From positions 405,494 through 469,493 of the forward strand of contig CAXXDB010000003.1 in assembly GCA_963666645.2 (NCBI GenBank): a stretch of DNA of 64,000 nucleotides, read 5' to 3'. The position numbers and the translations under genes were made by a program. This DNA is from an uncultured Tenacibaculum sp. GTDB taxonomy: Bacteria; Bacteroidota; Bacteroidia; Flavobacteriales; Flavobacteriaceae. Shown piece by piece: positions 4,746 to 14,949 of this stretch (the first letter of the stretch is position 1; the number at the start of each line of letters is the position of its first letter). The notes beneath the pieces were generated by a model, which was not told the DNA's origin, did not search any database, and saw nothing but the letters and a program-made list of their open reading frames with translations.

Positions 4746-5205
4746 CTAATATTTTTAATTAAAAGGGGATTTGTAATGACCTTTCTGCTTAGAAGATTAC
4801 CAAAAGTGTTTTTCCATAAAACTTCTTTTAGATTGACAGCAGTACTCGTTCAGGTAATTTTTCAAATATCCCGTATGATGATGCAGTCCTGCGATTCGGA
4901 ATTTAAGGTTCATAATAACCCTATGTGATTCGGGAAAGTTTCCTCCTCTTATCATCCAAAGTATAATGGAGTCAAATTTTTAACGTCTTTATGGATTGAT
5001 ACTTTATCCGTTTATCTTTGTTAATCTCCTCATTATAGACTATGTAATTTTTGATAAATGCATCAGGACTCTCTTTACCGGAACAGATAATTTCCTGGAA
5101 TCTTTATAGTTCTCATTATTTTACATTTGAACAATCAACAGGTTTTTTGTCGTAAGTTAATCCTATGAATCAACTCGGCAAAAGTAATTCCTTTCTTATT
5201 GATGT
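4746..5205 (-). mobile_element. IS1595-family transposase remnant with internal deletion
   Basis: Broken frames read KKGITFAELIHRINLRQKTC*LFKCKIM and GGNFPESHRVIMNLKFRIAGLHHHTGYLKNYLNEYCCQSKRSFME, the N- and C-terminal IS1595 motifs. Confidence 0.75.
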
Positions 5206-7770: not shown

Positions 7771-8742
7771 TTAAAAATCAGCGTCAAAACTGATTGAACC
7801 TGTTCCTCCGGATTTCACTCCTGCTTTTTGGTATTCAGATACTCTTTTTTCAAAGAAATTCGTTTTTCCTTCTAATGAAATCATTTCCATGAAATCAAAA
7901 GGATTTGTTGCATTATATTCTTTTTCACAACCAAATTCTAATAATAACCGATCTGTTACAAACTCTAAATATTGTGTCATTAGCTTCGCATTCATACCTA
8001 TTAGACTGACAGGTAACGATTCTGTAATAAATTCACGTTCTATATTTAGAGCAGAGATTATAATTTCTTTAATTCTTTCTTTAAGAACTTTATTTATAAG
8101 GTGATTATTGTGTAAATGGACTGCAAAATCACAATGCATTCCTTCATCTCTTGAGATTAATTCGTTTGAAAAGGCTAATCCTGGTAACAAACCTCTCTTT
8201 TTTAACCAAAAAATAGAACAAAAAGAACCTGAAAAGAAAATTCCTTCGACAGCGGCAAAGGCTATTAATCTTTCTGCAAATGAATCAGATTCTATCCATT
8301 TTAATGCCCATTCTGCCTTTTTCTTAATAGCAGGAAAAATTTCAATCGCTTTAAAGAGTTTGTTTTTTTCCTCATCTTTTTTAATATAAGTGTCAATTAA
8401 TAACGAATATGTTTCTGAATGAATGTTTTCCATCATAATCTGGAATCCATAGAAAAATTTAACTTCTGAATATTGAACTTCATTTACAAAGTTTTCAGCT
8501 AGATTTTCATTTACAATTCCATCCGAGGCTGCAAAAAAAGCTAAGATATGTTTAATGAAATAACGCTCATCATCAGTTAGTTTATTATTCCAATCATCCA
8601 AATCCTGATGCAAATCAATCTCTTCTGCAGTCCAAAAACAGGCCTGTTGTTTTTTATACCATTCCCATAAATCATTATGTTGAATAGGAAAGATAACAAA
8701 ACGATTTTTATTTTCTTGTAAAATAGGTTCTGTTACAGTCAT
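7771..8742 (-). CDS. nrdB: Ribonucleoside-diphosphate reductase beta subunit
   Basis: [45 protein letters not shown]. Confidence 0.97.
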
Positions 8743-8826
8743 TTTATAGTTTTCAATTTATTATTTAAAGTCTGCCAAAAGGCAGTAACAAAGGTTCAAA
8801 ATTTTATATCAAAAATAAAGAGTTAC

Positions 8827-8835
8827 TTATCCACA
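8827..8835 (+). promoter_or_regulatory. Perfect DnaA box TTATCCACA upstream of nrdB-nrdA
   Basis: Exact consensus 85 nt upstream of the nrdB start. Confidence 0.5.
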
Positions 8836-9084
8836 AACTCCTTGAAGTTTTTAACAAACAGGTAGCGATACTTAAAAATTAATAAAATAAGAAGTATATA
8901 TAAAATATTGATTTATAATATCTTAAAAAATAAATTCTCTGTATTAATTGTATCTTATAGAATCCGTATTTTGTTAAATTTTACAAAAAATAGCTATAAA
9001 AATAAAATAGCAATGTCTTAAAAGTTGCTTTTGATTTCATAATTCCCATATTATAATTTATGAAGTAAATAAAAGCCCTTTGTA

Positions 9085-9340
9085 AATGTTTTTTCATAAA
9101 ACTTCTGTTAGATCGGTAGCAATATTCATTCGGGTAATCTTGCAAATCTCCCTATGATGATGTAGTCCTCTGATCCGGAGAAGGTTCATAAATAACTCGA
9201 TGTAATTCAGGAAAGTTTCCTCCTTTATCATCCAAAGTATAATGGAGTCAAATTTTTAATGTTTTTATGGATTGATACCTTGTCGGTTTGTCTGTGTTAA
9301 TCCCCGAATTAAAGGCTATGTAATTTTTGATAAATGTATA
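9085..9340 (-). mobile_element. IS1595-family transposase C-terminal remnant (diverged direct repeat of about 4810-5063)
   Basis: Reads KGGNFPELHRVI...LQDYPNEYCYRSNRSFMK; shares long blocks such as tcatccaaagtataatggagtcaaattttta with the 4.8-5.1 kb copy. Confidence 0.75.
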
Positions 9341-9640
9341 TGCTGGGGCAAATATTCATCAATGCCATAATTTAAAAAATATAGAACATCCAATCGTAAA
9401 TTACTATGTATTATAAGGTTGCGATTACTAATAATATTTTCTAAATATCCTGCTAAACATAATTTAAAAAGTACAGCTGGATTAGCACTTTGCTGACCAC
9501 TTGTACCACAGTATTCTTTTGTTTCTGCATATAAAAATCTAAATGTAAAAGTTCTTTTAAACGACGGTAAAAATTAGGTTCAGGTTACTTAATTGAAAAC
9601 TGTTGAATAACTTCTCTTGATGTTTTTTCTTGTATTGCAT
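9341..9640 (-). mobile_element. IS1182-family transposase N-terminal remnant (frameshifted)
   Basis: MQYKKKHQEKLFNSFQLS / PNFYRRLKELLHLDF / GTSGQQSANPAVLFKLCLAGYLENIISNRNL. Confidence 0.75.
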
Positions 9641-9695
9641 ATACCAAATTACAAAATATCAATATCTTTACAAAACTTGTGTAGCAGACACTGAT

Positions 9696-9784
9696 GTTAC
9701 CTGCTGACTTTTTTCCCTTCGTTCATCAGCGTTGGCGTGAAAGTTCTCTGCAACCGCAGAAGCGAGGATTGCAATGTGCTTGAA
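9696..9784 (-). repeat. attC-like/structured repeat at the downstream boundary of the RM module
   Basis: Minus strand ttcaagcacatt-[gcaa(t)cc stem, ctcgcttct loop]-agaactttca-gccaacgct...cagcagGTAAC; related element at 12259-12343. Confidence 0.5.
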
Positions 9785-9795
9785 CATTGCTTTAG

Positions 9796-10896
9796 CTAAT
9801 TAAAATATTTTTCAATTAATTCATTCCATTTATCCTTATGAGCTTTTTTCAATTCTGTGTCAACTTCAATATCCTTACTGTAATTTTCCATAAACTCATC
9901 AAGAGATGTGATTAATCTTAAATAATATTTTAAAGTTGGAATTACACCATTAATTATCAATTGAGATCCGTGTTCCATTTTAATTTTAGTAATTAAATCA
10001 GCAATTTCTGTTTTATCACTTTCTTTAGTTCCAATGTATGATAAGACATAATATCTTTCAGGATTAAATATTTTAATTTTTTCTATTGCAATTCTTATTA
10101 TGTTACTATCAATTGCTTTATCCAGTTTAATTTCGATTGTCTCAAAAATATTTCCATATTTTGAAATCTCAATATCTCCTGATGATTTAGAAGTTCTGTC
10201 AGAAGCTGTATGACTTCCCATCTCTTCTAACTCACAATCTTTAAATCGAGACAATTCATTAATTAAACTTTTATAAATTGAATAGAATGCAATAACAGGA
10301 AGTTTTGAGCCACTGTGAGTTTCATAATTGAAGCTAAATTGCTCATCTAAAGCATTTATTATTTTCTCTATTGTTAAATTTTCTGGATTTTCTAAAGGTG
10401 TAATTTCAACTGTAGAACGTTTTTTTGCTTCTATTGCTTGAAACAGTATAAGTCTTAATAAATTGGTTGCTTTAGTTGGATTCTTTTCTAAATAGTCAAG
10501 TGTTTCTAAAAAAGCTTTTTTAACTGTTTTGTTGCTAATTTTTCCGTTATAATCTAAAGTATATTCATACGGTTGTTCTAATGAACGTGTTAACCATCCG
10601 CTTTCTGCCATTGAAGGTAATCCTAATTCTTTTAGGGTTGGTGTAATATAGTTGGTATCTATTGTTCTTCCAGAAAATCCACCTTCCATACTTGATTGAT
10701 GTTTTCTTACATCTTGTTTTGGAAATAGAATTTTATGCGTTACAAGAGTAGTTAAAACTGTAAAAACTCCTTTTTGTGTATTGATTTTAGCACCAATAGA
10801 TTCTATGTTTGTTAAGGTATTTTTGTCAATGTCTTTTATATCATTAACTGTAAAGGAGTTCTCGTAAGTCTCCAACAACTTTTTCTTGTGGCTCAT
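9796..10896 (-). CDS. Putative type II restriction endonuclease (PD-(D/E)xK; SacI-like assignment tentative)
   Basis: Directly downstream of and overlapping a C5 methyltransferase; GDIEI...ETIEIK nuclease-like motif. Confidence 0.65.
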   Translation of the reverse strand: MSHKKKLLETYENSFTVNDIKDIDKNTLTNIESIGAKINTQKGVFTVLTTLVTHKILFPKQDVRKHQSSMEGGFSGRTIDTNYITPTLKELGLPSMAESGWLTRSLEQPYEYTLDYNGKISNKTVKKAFLETLDYLEKNPTKATNLLRLILFQAIEAKKRSTVEITPLENPENLTIEKIINALDEQFSFNYETHSGSKLPVIAFYSIYKSLINELSRFKDCELEEMGSHTASDRTSKSSGDIEISKYGNIFETIEIKLDKAIDSNIIRIAIEKIKIFNPERYYVLSYIGTKESDKTEIADLITKIKMEHGSQLIINGVIPTLKYYLRLITSLDEFMENYSKDIEVDTELKKAHKDKWNELIEKYFN

Positions 10897-11875
10897 TTAT
10901 TAATAATTTTTGTTCTTTAATACTTCTTGCAACTTCAAAAATTACTGGAATTGCAACTGAATTACCAATTTGTTTATATTGTTCTCCTGTTTTTGGATGT
11001 CGCTTAAAATTGTTAGGAAAACCCATTATTCTATAACATTCATTTAAAGTTAGTTTTCTAACTTTATCTTCATTTGGTAAGTAAATGAAAAACCTGCCAG
11101 AAGTTTCTTGTGATGGAATTGTTGGGTGTGTTCCGTCTATAGAGTAAATTCTATTTGGTTGTCTGTGTACTCTAGATAAATGCTCTGTGTTAGGTCTAAT
11201 TCCATTTTTCCAAGTGTTTTTATTTCTATAGCCTGTAAAAATTAAACCAGTATCTTGTTTTTTAGGTTTTTCAATTAGTGTATATTCTTCTTTATCTAAA
11301 TATTCAAAATCTCCTTTAGTATCTAAAAATTCTTTTAGATAAACAGGTTTTTTAGTTTTCAATTTGTCAAATCTAAAAAAGCCGTTTTTAGTAGCTATTA
11401 TAAAAATTCGTTCACGATTTTGCGGCAAACCAAAATCTTTAGCATTTAAAATTTTATAGGTTACATTATAGCCTAAATCTTCTAAGGTTTGAATAATTGT
11501 TTTAAAGGTTCTTTTTTTGTCGTGATGAATTAAATGTTTTACATTTTCAAGAACAACTACTTTTGGTTGCTTTTTATCTATGATACGACAAATGTCAAAG
11601 AATAAAGTACCTCTAGTATCTTCAAATCCTTTCTTTTTACCAGAAATACTAAAAGGTTGGCAAGGAAATCCTGCTAAAAGGACTTCAAAATCAGGTATTT
11701 TACTAGGCTCTATTTTTGTAATGTCGCCAAAAACTTCATCTCCAAAATTATTTTCATACACTTCTTGGCAAGCCTCATTAATTTCTGAAGTAAAAACACA
11801 TTCATATCCAGCATTCTCAAAACCTTTTCTGAAACCTCCAATTCCTGCAAATAAATCTATAAATATAGGTTTCAT
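10844..11875 (-). CDS. DNA (cytosine-5)-methyltransferase
   Basis: Motifs I FAGIGG, IV GFPCQPFS, VI ENV, VIII QNRERIFI, X QIGNSV. Confidence 0.96.
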   Translation of the reverse strand: MKPIFIDLFAGIGGFRKGFENAGYECVFTSEINEACQEVYENNFGDEVFGDITKIEPSKIPDFEVLLAGFPCQPFSISGKKKGFEDTRGTLFFDICRIIDKKQPKVVVLENVKHLIHHDKKRTFKTIIQTLEDLGYNVTYKILNAKDFGLPQNRERIFIIATKNGFFRFDKLKTKKPVYLKEFLDTKGDFEYLDKEEYTLIEKPKKQDTGLIFTGYRNKNTWKNGIRPNTEHLSRVHRQPNRIYSIDGTHPTIPSQETSGRFFIYLPNEDKVRKLTLNECYRIMGFPNNFKRHPKTGEQYKQIGNSVAIPVIFEVARSIKEQKLLINEPQEKVVGDLRELLYS

Positions 11876-12180
11876 GATTTTTGTTTTTTTAATTTATTGT
11901 ATTTAATTCTTTGTTCAGCTACTTTTAAAACTTCTTCTGCTAGAGTTTCATTTTCCAAATTGTAAATAACTTTGTCACTCAACCAAGCTATAAGTAGTTC
12001 ATCTCTATTTAAGTTGTAGAAATTGGCAAATCGTTCAACTTGTTCTTTTGTAGGTCTTCTTTTTCCTCTTTCAAATTTGCTGATTATTGCTTGGTCAATA
12101 TCTAGCTCAGCTCCAATCTGTCTCAAGATTAGATTATTTTCTTCTCTTGCTTGTCTGATAATTTCTCCGAATGATTTCAT
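11872..12180 (-). CDS. XRE-family HTH regulator (controller-like) of the RM module
   Basis: Cro/C1 HTH LRQIGAELDIDQAIISKFERGKRRPT; 4-nt overlap with the methyltransferase start. Confidence 0.85.
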   Translation of the reverse strand: MKSFGEIIRQAREENNLILRQIGAELDIDQAIISKFERGKRRPTKEQVERFANFYNLNRDELLIAWLSDKVIYNLENETLAEEVLKVAEQRIKYNKLKKQKS

Positions 12181-12183
12181 AAG

Positions 12184-12212
12184 ACAATAATTGTTTTGAC
12201 AAAAATAGTCAA
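12184..12212. promoter_or_regulatory. Tandem palindromes upstream of the HTH gene (candidate operator)
   Basis: ACAAT-A-ATTGT at 12184-12194 and TTGAC-N7-GTCAA at 12196-12212 immediately before the ATG. Confidence 0.5.
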
Positions 12213-12258
12213 ATTACTCAAATCTATTTAGTATTATTTTCGGGTGGTGGTGAGGAAA

Positions 12259-12343
12259 TGAAAAGTTCTTTTTGTTTTGTGAGATACGAGCAAAACAAAA
12301 TGTACTTGAATATGCGATGGCTTTTTCTCATTTTGCAAGTAAC
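12259..12343 (-). repeat. attC-like/structured repeat at the upstream boundary of the RM module
   Basis: Minus strand ttGTTAC...ttcaagtacatt-[ttttgttttg/caaaacaaaa stem, ctcgtatct loop]-agaacttttca; related to 9696-9784. Confidence 0.5.
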
Positions 12344-12469
12344 AATTGTATAAATACATTAGTGTATTTATTTTTAATATATATGTAAAAAATATAAAAA
12401 ACTTACAAGTCTAATGAGTTTTTAATATAATCTTTATAAGCCCTGAATATTGTGCCAAGATTCCAAAAA

Positions 12470-12660
12470 CAGGCTTTGCTGTACTCTGACGCTTCGATTT
12501 CATCCTCTTTCCCTGTGATGTTTTAAACGAATTTTAGTCCGCTCTATTAAAGAATCATCTCAAAAAAGCCTTCATCTAACTCCGTTTTATTGTGTAATTT
12601 GTATTTATTATTCCTTTGCCCATGGCATAGCGAATTTTATGAAACATATACCAAACAGGT
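12470..12660 (-). mobile_element. IS1595-family transposase remnant (region before the catalytic core)
   Basis: WYMFHKIRYAMGK, then after a frameshift NNKYKLHNKTELDEGFFE. Confidence 0.7.
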
Positions 12661-12795
12661 TTATAATAAGGATTTTTTAACTGCTGTTGTATTTCTAATC
12701 AAAAAATAGCTCTATATGTTAAAAAACTCTTAATTTGTAGCGTTTCATTATTTTTTAATCTAATTTTGAGAATATTAACTAATGAATTTTACCTA

Positions 12796-14949
12796 ATGAG
12801 AAAATTAATATTATTGATGTTGGCAAGTACGTTTTTTATAGCTTGTAAAAACAAGACACCTAAAAACACTATTGAAGTAAAGTATCCTGAAACAGCAAAA
12901 AAACCTGTGGTTGATGAGTATTTTGGAACAAAGATAACAGATAACTATAGATGGTTAGAAGATGACAGAAGTGAAGAAACTGAGAATTGGGTTAAAATAG
13001 AAAATGAGATAACTTTCGATTACTTTAGCAAAATACCTTACAGAAAACAACTCAAAAACAGATTATCTGAATTATGGAACTATGAAAAAGTGGGAGTTCC
13101 TTTTAAAGAAGGAGGTTATACATATTTCTATAAAAATAATGGATTACAAAATCACTATGTATTATATAGAAAAAAAGGGGAAGAACAAGAGAAAGTTTTT
13201 TTAGACCCGAATACCTTTTCTGACGATGGAACTATTTCATTAAGTAACGTTAGTTTTTCTAAAGACGGAAAAACAATTGCCTATTCCATTTCAGAAGGCG
13301 GAAGCGATTGGAGAAAAATAGTTGTAATGGATATAGTCTGCGAAGAAATAAAAGAAGACACCTTAACAGATGTGAAGTTTTCGGGAATCTCCTGGAGAGG
13401 CAATGAAGGATTTTATTATTCAAGTTATGACAAGCCTAAAGGGAGTGAGTTGTCTGCTAAAACAGATCAACATAAATTGTATTATCATAAATTAGGAACT
13501 AGTCAAAAAAAAGATGAAGTTATTTTTGGTGCTATTCCGGAAGAAAAACATCGTTATGTAGGAGGATATTTAACAGAAGATGATAAGTATTTAATTATTT
13601 CAGCTTCTACTTCTACCTCCGGAAATAAATTGTTTATAAAAGATTTATCAAATCCTGATAGTGAGTTAACAGTTGTTTTAGATAATTTTGATAGTGATAC
13701 GTATGTTATAGATAATAAAGGAAGTAAACTATACTTAGTAACGAACTTAAATGCACCCAATCAGAAAATCGTTACTGTAGATGCATCGAATCCAGCTCCT
13801 GAAAACTGGAAAGACTTTATTCCTGAAACAGAAAATGTATTAACCCCTTCTACAGCAGCAGGTTATTTTTTTGCTAAATACATGATAGACGCAGTATCTG
13901 AAGTTTTACAATATGATTATAATGGTACATTAATTAGAGAGATTGAACTACCTGGAATTGGATCAGTTAGTGGTTTTGAAGGAAAGAGCAACGCTAAAGA
14001 GCTATATTTCTCTTTTACAAATTATAACACTCCTTCATCTTCATACAAATTCAATCCGGCTACAGGAATCTATAAATTATATTGGAAGCCAACAATTTCT
14101 TTTAATTCTGATGATTACGAAAGCCAACAGGTTTTCTATAATTCTAAAGACGGAACAAAAGTTCCGATGATTATTACATATAAAAAAGGAACAGAGTTAA
14201 ATGGTAAAAACCCAACAATTTTATATGGCTATGGGGGTTTCAACATTAGTCTAACTCCGAATTTTAGTATTCCAAATGCTGTATGGATGGAACAAGGAGG
14301 AGTTTATGCAGTTCCAAATCTAAGAGGGGGAGGTGAATATGGAAAAAAATGGCATGTAGCAGGAACAAAAACACAAAAACAAAATGTATTCAATGATTTT
14401 ATTGCAGCAGCAGAATACTTAATAGAAAACAAATACACATCTTCTGATTATTTAGCAATAAGAGGAGGATCTAACGGAGGACTTTTAGTAGGAGCAACCA
14501 TGACGCAACGTCCGAATCTAATGAAAGTAGCATTACCTGCTGTAGGTGTACTGGATATGCTTCGCTACCATACATTTACAGCAGGAGCAGGCTGGGCATA
14601 TGATTATGGAACTGCTCAGGATAGTAAAGAAATGTTTGACTATTTAAAAGGATATTCACCGGTTCATAATATTAAAGATGATGTGTCTTATCCCGCAACA
14701 TTAGTAACGACAGGAGATCATGATGATCGTGTAGTTCCTGCACATAGTTTTAAGTTCGCAGCAGAACTACAAGACAAACAAACTGGGGCAAATCCTGTGT
14801 TGATTAGAGTAGAAACAAATGCAGGTCACGGAGCAGGAACCCCTGTTGCTAAAACAATAGAACAATATGCCGATATATTCGGATTCACATTATTCAATAT
14901 GGGATTTAATCATTTACCTAACCCTTCAAAAGAAAAAATCAAACTATAA
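12796..14949 (+). CDS. Prolyl oligopeptidase (S9A), probable lipoprotein
   Basis: DNYRWLED, catalytic GGSNGG, DHDDRV, AGHGAG; lipobox FIAC after the Met at 12796. Confidence 0.95.

What the first reader, a model, noticed from the sequence alone, without database searches (positions are those of the whole stretch)
9696..12343. Restriction-modification module packaged like a gene cassette between attC-like hairpins
Seen: read on the minus strand, the HTH-methyltransferase-endonuclease module starts just after ttGTTAC (12339-12343) and ends at cagcagGTAAC (9696-9700), an inverted core pair. Inside each end is the same element, TTCAAGYACATT-[stem]-CTCGnnTCT-[stem]-AGAACTTT(T)CA (9738-9784 and 12259-12310). 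The stems differ in sequence but stay paired (gcaa(t)cc/ggttgc versus ttttgttttg/caaaacaaaa). Known: integron cassettes are bounded by GTT/AAC cores of folded attC sites. Inference: the module came as a single cassette from a Bacteroidota cassette-array or integron-like system; no integrase is present in this window.
Basis: partly seen in the sequence, partly recalled or inferred. Interest (0 to 1): 0.66.

Follow-up and report, generated by a model that had tools for sequence, protein, structure and literature searches.

The report
Stranded restriction cassette, integron-like system
A restriction-modification operon in this Flavobacteriaceae genome is a stranded gene cassette of a Bacteroidota gene-capture system that resembles an integron but uses a different recombinase, and the two hairpins flanking it are not the recombination sites but a new conserved module found at the ends of large defence cassettes.

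Summary
Two copies of a ~55-nt hairpin element (9735-9786, 12257-12312) flank an HTH/C5-methyltransferase/endonuclease operon, and the unit ends in inverted cores GTTACCTGC (9696) and GCAAGTAAC (12343).

The hairpins are not the recombination sites. The cores are the R boxes of a ~135-nt attC-like site family:
- about 77 copies in this genome, and matches in 134 of 151 genera of the family;
- 12 of 17 stem pairs covary;
- cassette ends are complementary beyond the GTT/AAC triplets (12 of 31 perfect), while the two ends of one site are not.

In relatives, arrays begin at a conserved attI-like core (ATATAAACAA|GTT). This core lies just downstream of a XerA/IntI-like tyrosine recombinase that lacks the IntI insertion and carries an extra N-terminal domain.

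This genome has no such recombinase, and the window has no intact attC-like site. The cassette is therefore solitary and stranded between nrdB and a prolyl oligopeptidase gene, among IS debris.

The hairpins belong to a separate covarying module family (39 of 151 genera). It sits at fixed distance inside the ends of large, mostly defence, cassettes and is flanked by direct GCGTTGGC boxes. Its function is unproven. I favour accessory protein-binding sites for recombination; insulation is the main rival.

The parts
9486..9695 (-). Fragment of an IS5/IS1182-like element. Its end abuts the cassette core and occupies the place where the cassette's own attC-like site should be.
   Evidence: BLAST to other genome copies, 77-81% identity up to window position ~9698. 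The transposase N-terminus reads from 9640 on the minus strand.
9696..9706 (-). R box at the 3' end of the cassette. On the coding strand it reads CAGCAGGTAAC, equivalent to R'' of the cassette's own, now missing, attC-like site.
   Evidence: Inverted repeat of 12335-12343. The same GTTACCTGC box starts cassettes in other genera.
9702..9736 (+). Outer extension of the B module: box0 TGCTGACTTTTT (9702-9714) and box1 CAGCGTTGGC (9727-9736).
   Evidence: Conserved in class B copies of other genera. The GCGTTGGC box is about 10-fold enriched beside attC-like sites.
9735..9786 (+). B module hairpin. P1 is AAGT/GCTT, the internal loop is TCT/ATGT, and P2 is TGCAACC/GGATTGCA.
   Evidence: CM R2 hit, 44.7 bits, E 1.6e-10. 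Covariation is shown.
9796..10896 (-). Restriction endonuclease, 366 aa. Homologues are named SacI family.
   Evidence: ORF. Homologues of 63-96% identity carry precomputed PF09566, and 70-78% identical ones bear the NCBI name 'SacI family'. My own Pfam and NCBIfam scans gave no hit.
10844..11875 (-). C-5 cytosine DNA methyltransferase, 343 aa.
   Evidence: PF00145, E 3e-100. TIGR00675 dcm, 334 bits.
11872..12180 (-). HTH_3 controller (C) protein, 102 aa.
   Evidence: PF01381, E 4e-12.
12196..12216 (-). C-box-like palindrome TTGAC-N7-GTCAA, overlapping a Bacteroidota-type -7 motif (TAATTTG on the minus strand). This is the operon's own promoter/operator.
   Evidence: Read from the sequence. 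It is conserved in the 84% identical homologue L059. Function is inferred.
12257..12312 (+). A module hairpin. P2 is TTTTGTTTTG/CAAAACAAAA and the loop is TGAGATACGAG.
   Evidence: CM R2 hit, 69.4 bits, E 3.5e-18. Fold z-score -3.9 to -4.3.
12313..12334 (+). Outer extension of the A module: box2 TGCGATGGCTTTTT, then the spacer up to the R box.
   Evidence: Conserved in class A copies.
12335..12343 (-). R box at the 5' end of the cassette. On the coding strand it reads G|TTACTTGC, with the crossover after G at 12343.
   Evidence: This is analogous to cassette starts at the attI-like core and at attC-like sites.
12344..12415 (.). Remnant next to the R box (AATT-GTATAAATACA...). It is not an intact attC-like site.
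   Evidence: 87% identical to G000:C9:193069-193145, which also follows an ...ACAAC box. No R1 match.
12428..12699 (-). IS1595 (ISXO2-like) transposase gene fragment.
   Evidence: 85.5% identical to G000:C3:532470-532741. Intact copies carry PF12762.

Best explanation
The 2.65-kb unit 9696-12343, read on the minus strand, is a gene cassette of an integron-like gene-capture system that is widespread in Flavobacteriaceae and other Bacteroidota. In that system a XerA/IntI-like tyrosine recombinase sits at the head of an array. This recombinase has no IntI I2 insertion and has an extra ~95-aa N-terminal domain. Cassettes are inserted at an attI-like core (ATATAAACAA|GTT) just downstream of its gene. 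Each cassette ends in a ~135-nt folded attC-like site, and strand exchange occurs at the conserved GTT/AAC triplet. The window's cassette carries a self-regulated Type II R-M system (C protein, C5 methyltransferase, SacI-family endonuclease) in the usual cassette orientation. It is stranded: its own attC-like site has been replaced by IS debris, it lies outside the genome's arrays, and the genome has about 77 attC-like sites but no cognate recombinase. The two hairpins are not recombination cores. They are copies of a conserved 'cassette-end module'. Each module has a GCGTTGGC box, helix P1 (CAAGC/GCTTG), a conserved internal loop (TCTTT/AATGT), a variable helix P2, and a second GCGKTGGC box. 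The modules lie at fixed distance just inside the 5' (class A) and 3' (class B) ends of large cassettes, most of them carrying defence genes, several with their own HTH regulator. In an excised circle the two modules would flank the attC-like site. Inferred, about 0.3: they are accessory, arm-type-like protein-binding or folding sites that help recombine large cassettes. Shown: the anatomy, family membership, covariation, cassette-boundary rule, and the linkage and polarity of recombinase and arrays. Inferred: the recombinase's activity, single-strand folding, and the module's function.
For: The attC-like family is real: across 15 sites from 3 genera, 92.6% of cells are paired, 12 of 17 stem pairs are compensatory, two G.U pairs are near-invariant, and 0 of 500 shuffles reach this. 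The cassette-boundary rule holds: cassette ends are complementary beyond GTT/AAC with mean 3.74 of 6, and 12 of 31 are perfect. Within a site the value is 2.15, the same as random. Worked examples are GTTAGGC...GCCTAAC and GTTGTACGC...GCGTACAAC. This genome has about 77 sites. The CM R1 hits 134 of 151 genera of the family and 84 of 251 genomes of the phylum sample. The recombinase is found in 104 of 151 genera, and its presence tracks that of the sites (101/33/3/14). In 68 recombinase-centred loci, 79 of 86 sites lie downstream of the gene in one orientation. A conserved attI-like core follows the gene. The recombinase's best families are NF040815 XerA/integron integrase and TIGR02249. The TIGR02249 match comes in two stretches that skip model positions 183-238. 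Its best folds are VchIntIA (2a3v) and XerA. For the modules: 41 distinct copies, 11 of 15 pairs compensatory; fixed 21-28 nt from the site edge; present in 39 of 151 genera. Their cargo is R-M and other defence genes. P1 covaries, with CATAC/GTATG and TAGG/CCTA variants. The boxes are 10-fold enriched beside sites and always co-oriented. From the literature: in Riemerella, a gene plus a 140-bp attC-like stem-loop integrates without homology (PMC13148043).
Against: No recombination was observed here. The window has no intact attC-like site and the genome has no recombinase, so this copy's cassette status rests on its end cores (8 of 9 match) and on homology of its end modules to those of cassettes elsewhere. 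The empty site could not be reconstructed, because synteny with the same-genus genome G179 ends at nrdB. Homologues of this R-M pair at 78-84% identity lie in unrelated contexts without modules, so the genes also move by other routes. The module's function is untested. The test of which strand folds better is ambiguous: the plus strand is better in 25 of 32 variants, but the GCAACC (B) type folds better on the other strand. Many cassettes lack modules, so modules are not required for recombination in general.
Confidence: 0.75

Rival explanations
1. The modules are transcriptional insulators or RNA 3'-end/stability hairpins. On this view they shield self-regulated, potentially toxic cargo (R-M systems with C proteins) from read-through coming from neighbouring cassettes, and they end the cargo transcript. 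They would have no role in recombination.
For: The modules bracket cargo that has its own promoter/operator: A lies upstream of the C-box promoter and B lies 10-45 nt after the last stop codon. They occur only in large, mostly defence, cassettes, several of which open with their own HTH regulator. The B-type GCAACC hairpin is more stable on the mRNA strand.
Against: No U-tract follows the hairpin on either strand, and the terminator scan found 0 sites in 9300-12800. The A-type hairpins fold better on the non-coding strand. The strongest conservation is in the unpaired loop and in the flanking direct boxes rather than in stem stability. The distance to the crossover is fixed rather than the distance to the genes.
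Confidence: 0.2
2. One reading: the hairpins themselves are the attC-like recombination sites at which the R-M module is excised and inserted.
For: They have an attC-like logic: a conserved base helix, an unpaired spacer, and a variable covarying stem. They flank the cargo as direct repeats.
Against: Cassette boundaries defined by end complementarity fall at the GTT/AAC of the 135-nt sites, 40-60 nt outside the hairpins. Most cassettes have no such hairpin (about 9 modules against about 77 sites in this genome). No cassette was found with a lone hybrid module, which B x A recombination would leave.
Confidence: 0.07
3. The modules are the ends of a separate hairpin-dependent mobile or transfer unit nested in the cassette. 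Candidates are an IS200/IS605-type non-autonomous element moved by a Y1 HUH transposase, or oriT/single-strand-origin-like sites used by a relaxase or Rep protein.
For: Same-orientation subterminal hairpins with conserved flanks at both ends of the cargo resemble the IS200/IS605 left and right ends. A Y1 transposase gene lies about 500 nt from one module in G005. One R-M homologue sits beside a Rep_1 gene.
Against: Y1 transposase genes are absent from 5 of 10 module-bearing genomes, including this one. The modules are always at a fixed distance from attC-like crossover points and were never seen elsewhere in genomes. Copy numbers are low, 1-6 per genome.
Confidence: 0.08

Closest known systems
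Sedentary chromosomal integrons and CALINs (IntI, attI, attC; for example the Vibrio cholerae superintegron)
   Same: Both have arrays of co-oriented cassettes, each ending in a folded imperfect palindrome with AAC/GTT R boxes and L boxes. The crossover is at the conserved triplet, so each cassette's first bases complement its own R''. A primary site lies next to the recombinase gene. The cargo is rich in defence and R-M genes. Orphan arrays without a recombinase exist. The recombinase's nearest solved relatives are VchIntIA and XerA.
   Different: The recombinase lacks the IntI-specific insertion and has an extra N-terminal beta-beta-alpha-beta-beta-alpha domain. The array lies downstream of the gene's 3' end and is co-oriented with it. 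The sites are ~135 nt with a 17-bp conserved stem and two fixed G.T pairs. Published IntegronFinder surveys report almost nothing in Bacteroidetes and nothing in a Flavobacterium genome (10.1101/2022.02.28.482270; PMC13700133).
Homology-independent integration of aph(3')-IVb, lnu(H) and blaRATA in Riemerella anatipestifer (PMC13148043)
   Same: The host is in the order Flavobacteriales. A gene plus a ~140-bp 3' stem-loop 'analogous to attC' integrates without flanking homology after natural transformation.
   Different: That paper names no recombinase, array or attI-like site, and its cassettes are single resistance genes. I did not test whether its stem-loop matches model R1.
C-protein-controlled Type II restriction-modification operons (SacI-family endonuclease with a C5 methyltransferase)
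   Same: The gene order is HTH controller, methyltransferase, endonuclease, with overlapping reading frames and a palindromic operator upstream of the C gene.
   Different: Here the operon is framed by cassette-end modules and integron-type R boxes. Close homologues elsewhere lack them.
IS200/IS605 ends and their non-autonomous derivatives (PATEs)
   Same: Both have subterminal hairpins in the same orientation at both ends, with conserved sequence at the hairpin foot.
   Different: No Y1 transposase is present in this genome or in half of the module-bearing genomes. The modules sit at fixed distance from attC-like crossovers and are flanked by direct GCGTTGGC boxes.

Membership tests
Classical integron (IntI / attI / attC) | An integron integrase carrying the IntI-specific additional domain (I2 helix) | tested here: not met
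   The array-linked recombinases score 180-202 bits on TIGR02249, against a cut-off of 265. The match comes in two stretches that skip model positions 183-238. The R...HxxR spacing is 89 aa, as in Xer proteins. The window's own genome has no homologue at all.
Classical integron (IntI / attI / attC) | attC: an imperfect palindrome with R''/R' boxes (AAC...GTT), L''/L' boxes and a variable centre | tested here: met
   AAC and GTT are invariant in 15 of 15 sites, and the 17-bp stem has 12 covarying pairs. The sites are 120-138 nt long. None is intact inside the window.
Classical integron (IntI / attI / attC) | Crossover at the conserved triplet, so that a cassette's first bases complement its own R'' | tested here: met
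   12 of 31 consecutive site pairs are perfect at 6 of 6. Within-site complementarity equals random. The window's cassette matches at 5 of 6 variable positions.
Classical integron (IntI / attI / attC) | A primary site (attI) beside the integrase gene, heading a co-oriented array | tested here: met
   This holds in relatives only. The conserved core ATATAAACAA|GTT lies 100-170 nt after the recombinase stop codon, and 79 of 86 sites lie downstream in one orientation. The layout differs from the classical divergent one.
Classical integron (IntI / attI / attC) | Recombination of the folded single bottom strand of attC | not testable with these tools
   There is only indirect evidence: two near-invariant G.T pairs make one strand fold better.
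CALIN (cluster of attC sites lacking an integrase) | At least two attC sites close together with no integrase nearby | tested here: not met
   The genome's arrays on C9, C8, C3 and C7 fit this definition. The window's cassette does not, because there is no intact site within 64 kb.
Type II R-M system with controller protein | A methyltransferase, an endonuclease, and an HTH C protein with an upstream palindromic operator | tested here: met
   PF00145 and TIGR00675 identify the methyltransferase and PF01381 the HTH protein. The TTGAC-N7-GTCAA palindrome lies upstream. The endonuclease family is known only through homologues' annotations, PF09566 and SacI family. My own scans gave no hit.
IS200/IS605-type non-autonomous element | A Y1 HUH transposase available in the genome to act on the hairpin ends | tested here: not met
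   PF01797 is absent from G000 and from 4 other of the 10 module-bearing genomes tested.
Any Rfam RNA family | A match to a curated covariance model | tested here: not met
   There is no match near either hairpin at E up to 10.

The most novel reading that the evidence does not exclude
Bacteroidota carry a phylum-wide sister system of integrons. It is run by a XerA/IntI-like recombinase that replaced the IntI I2 insertion with an N-terminal DNA-binding domain. Within this system the A/B hairpin modules with their GCGTTGGC boxes would be a second layer. They would act as arm-type accessory or folding sites that flank the attC-like site in the excised circle. That would define a 'large-cargo' class of cassettes able to carry whole multi-gene defence systems. 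No comparable accessory element is known to me from classical integron cassettes.
Probability: 0.3. Interest if true: 0.8.

Novelty: new variant of a known kind. Interest (0 to 1): 0.68.

Why it matters
Integrons are the textbook gene-capture device, and surveys report them as almost absent from Bacteroidetes. Here a functionally analogous system appears in about 90% of sampled Flavobacteriaceae genera and in other classes of the phylum. It uses a recombinase that lacks the domain thought to be needed to read folded attC sites. That makes two questions directly testable. The first is how hairpin-site recombination can work without the I2 helix. The second is how multi-gene defence systems, and resistance genes in Riemerella, move among Bacteroidota. 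The cassette-end modules are a new, well-defined sequence handle for finding large defence cassettes. The window's copy also shows how such a cassette becomes fixed outside an array once its site and its recombinase are lost.

Tried and rejected
- **Rfam:** the scan of 8700-12800 found nothing relevant.
- **Intrinsic terminators:** the scan found none.
- **Fuzzy pattern scan of the genome:** it was too noisy to use and was replaced by nhmmer and covariance models.
- **HUH (IS200/IS605) idea:** the transposase is absent from half of the module-bearing genomes.
- **Empty-site reconstruction with same-genus genome G179:** it failed. Synteny stops at nrdB, and the prolyl oligopeptidase gene is not found at the DNA level.
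- **Search for the same R-M cassette with modules elsewhere:** only 1 distant homologue (44%) turned up in 401 family genomes. Closer metagenomic homologues lack modules.
- **Strand-of-folding test for the modules:** ambiguous.
- **Fold search of the recombinase model:** it was dominated by the catalytic body, so the N-terminal domain was not identified.
- **Literature:** 8 searches found no description of these arrays or modules. They found only the Riemerella hint and the negative IntegronFinder surveys.
Full report
**Observation.** Read on the minus strand, the window holds an operon of three genes:
- an HTH_3 protein (11872-12180);
- a C5 cytosine methyltransferase (10844-11875; PF00145, E 3e-100);
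- a 366-aa protein (9796-10896) whose 63-96% identical homologues carry precomputed PF09566; 70-78% identical ones are named 'restriction endonuclease, SacI family' by NCBI.

My own Pfam and NCBIfam scans of the 366-aa protein gave no hit.

It never occurred in 100 shuffles. The stems differ but stay paired. The unit ends in GTTACCTGC (9696-9704) and GCAAGTAAC (12335-12343), which match at 8 of 9 positions as inverted repeats.

**The hairpin is a family.** The genome (2.63 Mb, 9 contigs) has three further copies found with the first profile, at C9:460608-460670, C9:460855-460914 and C9:480375-480447. It also has at least four more divergent ones.

A one-genome-per-genus scan of the family found true copies in dozens of genera, with about ten unrelated stem sequences. 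A covariance model (R2) hits 39 of 151 genera, with 1-6 copies each. On 41 distinct copies:
- 92.2% of cells pair;
- 11 of 15 pairs show compensatory changes;
- 0 of 500 shuffles reach this (this alignment was fitted to the model).

The anatomy, in window plus-strand orientation, runs as follows:
- box AGCGTTGGC;
- a spacer;
- helix P1, CAAGC, pairing with GCTTG;
- a conserved internal loop, TCTTT opposite AATGT;
- a variable helix P2;
- an apical loop that is either GAGGCACGAG or a longer loop holding another GCGTTGGC;
- box GCGKTGGC.

P1 itself covaries, with CATAC/GTATG and TAGG/CCTA variants.

There are two classes. Class B copies (the 9735-9786 copy) carry a left extension, GTTACC-TGCTGGCTTTT. 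Class A copies (the 12257-12312 copy) carry a right extension, GGCTTTTTTCAGC-TTGC-AGGTAAC. Units always read B, cargo, A.

**The real recombination sites.** In better-preserved arrays, between an A end and the next B start lies a ~135-nt imperfect palindrome: nnnnAAC-N5-6-GTATAT...ATATAC-N3-GTTnnnn.

For fifteen such sites from three genera:
- AAC and GTT are invariant;
- the stem is 17 bp, with 12 pairs changed on both sides;
- 92.6% of cells pair, and 0 of 500 shuffles reach this;
- two near-invariant G.U pairs give one strand the better fold.

The integron hallmark holds. A cassette that starts G|TTAGGC ends in GCCTAAC. The next starts G|TTGTACGC and ends in GCGTACAAC.

I tested this systematically on 41 full-length sites of this genome. 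The six bases beyond GTT of one site complement the six bases before AAC of the next, with mean 3.74 of 6, and 12 of 31 pairs are perfect. The two ends of the same site match no better than random pairs (2.15 against 2.15). So exchange happens at the conserved triplet and the segments between sites are the mobile units.

**Platform and recombinase.** This genome has about 77 such sites in several clusters. The largest spans about 100 kb on contig 9. Model R1 hits 134 of 151 genera of the family. It hits 84 of 251 genomes (41 of 125 genera) of a phylum-wide sample at E up to 1e-6.

In relatives a 345-385-aa tyrosine recombinase heads the arrays. It has these properties:
- homologues at E up to 1e-45 in 104 of 151 genera, usually one per genome;
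- co-occurrence counts, sites/recombinase: +/+ 101, +/- 33, -/+ 3, -/- 14;
- named hosts include Mariniflexile, Polaribacter, Tenacibaculum, Maribacter, Algibacter, Aequorivita, Formosa and Flavobacterium;
- homologues of about 40% identity occur in Chitinophagales and Saprospiraceae.

In 68 loci centred on the gene, 79 of 86 sites lie downstream of it in a single orientation, and the first site lies 300-900 nt after the stop codon. A conserved attI-like core, (C)ATATAAAC(A/T)A|GTT, lies 100-170 nt after the stop codon.

The protein's best families are NF040815 (XerA/integron integrase, 188-215 bits against a cut-off of 220) and TIGR02249. The TIGR02249 match (180-202 bits against 265) comes in two stretches that skip model positions 183-238, which is where the IntI-specific insertion lies. 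The R...HxxR spacing is 89 aa, counted on the sequence.

A model built from 23 sequences (pLDDT 83.6) shows an extra N-terminal beta-beta-alpha-beta-beta-alpha domain, residues 1-75. Its best solved relatives are VchIntIA (2a3v) and XerA.

This genome has no homologue. The best tblastn hits are 28-36% identical Xer-like genes. Its arrays are therefore orphans.

**What the window's unit is.**
- The conserved G.T pairs place the better-folding strand of the sites on the window's plus strand. The R-M genes therefore lie on the 'top' strand, the same direction as the recombinase and the cassette ORFs in relatives.
- The cassette starts at G|TTACTTGC (12343 downwards). It then runs through the A module, the C-box promoter, the three genes and the B module, and ends at CAGCAGGTAAC (9706-9696).
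- Its own attC-like site should follow at positions below 9696. That space is occupied by the end of an IS5/IS1182-like fragment.
- Beyond 12343 there is only a 72-nt remnant and then an IS1595 fragment.
- R1 with filters off finds no site in the whole window.
- The unit lies between nrdAB and a prolyl oligopeptidase gene, far from the arrays.

It is therefore a solitary, immobilised cassette. I could not reconstruct the empty site.

**What the modules are.** They lie 21-28 nt from the edge of the attC-like site. B follows the R' box and A precedes the R'' box. In an excised circle they would flank the site.

They occur only in large cassettes of 2.6-10 kb, several of which open with their own HTH regulator. 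The cargoes found are:
- the window's R-M system, whose endonuclease homologues are annotated SacI family;
- an NgoFVII-type R-M system;
- a Type III R-M system;
- T5orf172-ResIII plus an Eco57I-type methylase;
- a TPR, MazG, GIY-YIG/Schlafen-helicase set;
- a Dam methylase with a partner gene;
- a DnaJ-domain module;
- a 735-aa protein of unknown function.

Small cassettes lack modules. The GCGTTGGC box is about 10-fold enriched in the 200 nt beside sites (0.39 against 0.038 per kb) and is always co-oriented with the site. In one case three boxes sit at 38-39-nt spacing.

Conservation is strongest in the unpaired loop and the boxes, while the stems vary. That is the signature of a protein-recognised folded or bent DNA site.

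I therefore favour accessory, arm-type-like sites, perhaps read by the recombinase's extra N-terminal domain. My confidence in this is only about 0.3. Insulation or termination is the main rival, at about 0.2. It fits the position around self-promoted toxic cargo, but there is no U-tract, the terminator scan is empty, and the folding-strand test is mixed.

A nested HUH element is unlikely.

Homologues of the R-M pair at 78-84% identity sit in unrelated loci without modules. One has an attC-like remnant after the endonuclease gene, and another has a decayed B-like stretch. The modules therefore belong to the cassette frame, not to the genes.

**Comparison with what is known.** The system works like a sedentary chromosomal integron but fails the defining IntI test.
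- The IntegronFinder 2.0 survey found only In0 elements and a single complete integron (Salinibacter ruber) in Bacteroidetes (10.1101/2022.02.28.482270).
- A Flavobacterium genome screened with IntegronFinder had none (PMC13700133).
- One paper reports that in Riemerella a gene with a 140-bp attC-like 3' stem-loop integrates without homology after natural transformation, by an unknown mechanism (PMC13148043).
- Eight literature searches found no description of the arrays, the recombinase or the modules.

Earlier notes of this scan describe the same integron-like system in other genomes. These are leads, not independent evidence. I re-derived the site structure, the boundary rule and the recombinase features here. 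None of those notes mentions the A/B modules.

**Verdict.**
- It is a new variant of a known kind, with a new sub-feature in the cassette-end modules.
- Interest is 0.68.

Noticed in passing
window 9486-9695; also G000:C3:676620-676860, C4:25495-25700, C9:190200-190450: Copies of an IS5/IS1182-like element (DUF772/DDE_Tnp_1 type) end 3-4 nt from an R box or L box of attC-like sites in four separate loci. This suggests an insertion sequence that targets these sites, as the IS1111-attC elements do in integrons. Alternatively it could be a transposase cassette with a variant site.
   Followed up: partly
window 9084-9339 and window 4804-5063: A ~260-nt repeat, 84% identical between the two places, has further copies at G000:C3:398049-398219, C1:32805-33009 and C7:52905-53109. 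Its nature is unknown.
   Followed up: no
G000:C9:448000-546000, C9:640000-651000, C8:544000-562000, C9:143000-147500, C3:182000-228600, C7:300-8700: The genome holds about 77 attC-like sites in several arrays. The arrays show orientation flips and many IS1595 copies. The genome has no cognate recombinase gene, so this is a large orphan cassette reservoir.
   Followed up: partly
G000:C9:472015-472536, 474078-474599, 480540-481050, 489045-489579: Very short (~520 nt centre-to-centre) units recur between larger cassettes; three share the same private ends (GTT|ATTTTT ... AAAAAT|AAC), the fourth ends GAAAAC|AAC. They may be gene-less spacer cassettes.
   Followed up: no
L055 (ENA ERZ21742408 ctg6194l, 2342938-2354038): A methyltransferase-endonuclease pair whose endonuclease is 82% identical to the window's lies between sufB and sufC of another genome, together with an attC-like remnant and small ORFs. 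Cassettes seem to have landed inside a housekeeping operon.
   Followed up: partly
G008:C7:93016-94047, G112:C25:282584-283615, G103:C18:14287-15324, L110 (Empedobacter brevis): A second, shorter (~358 aa) subgroup of the recombinase lies divergently from its array. This is the classical integron layout, unlike the co-oriented main group.
   Followed up: no
L140:3258-5465, L068 from ~7190, L021/L022: Several A-module cassettes begin with a 735-aa protein starting MATINFYLDKPDKKGF. That N-terminus looked to me like a Bacteroidota-type integrase arm-binding domain (my reading; not scanned against Pfam). A second recombinase may therefore be riding as cargo.
   Followed up: no
L036:1-300 (G055:C29 contig start): A tandem array of a ~21-nt unit (GTGTACCACTCAATCACTGRR) lies at the contig end, upstream of a cassette array.
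   Followed up: no
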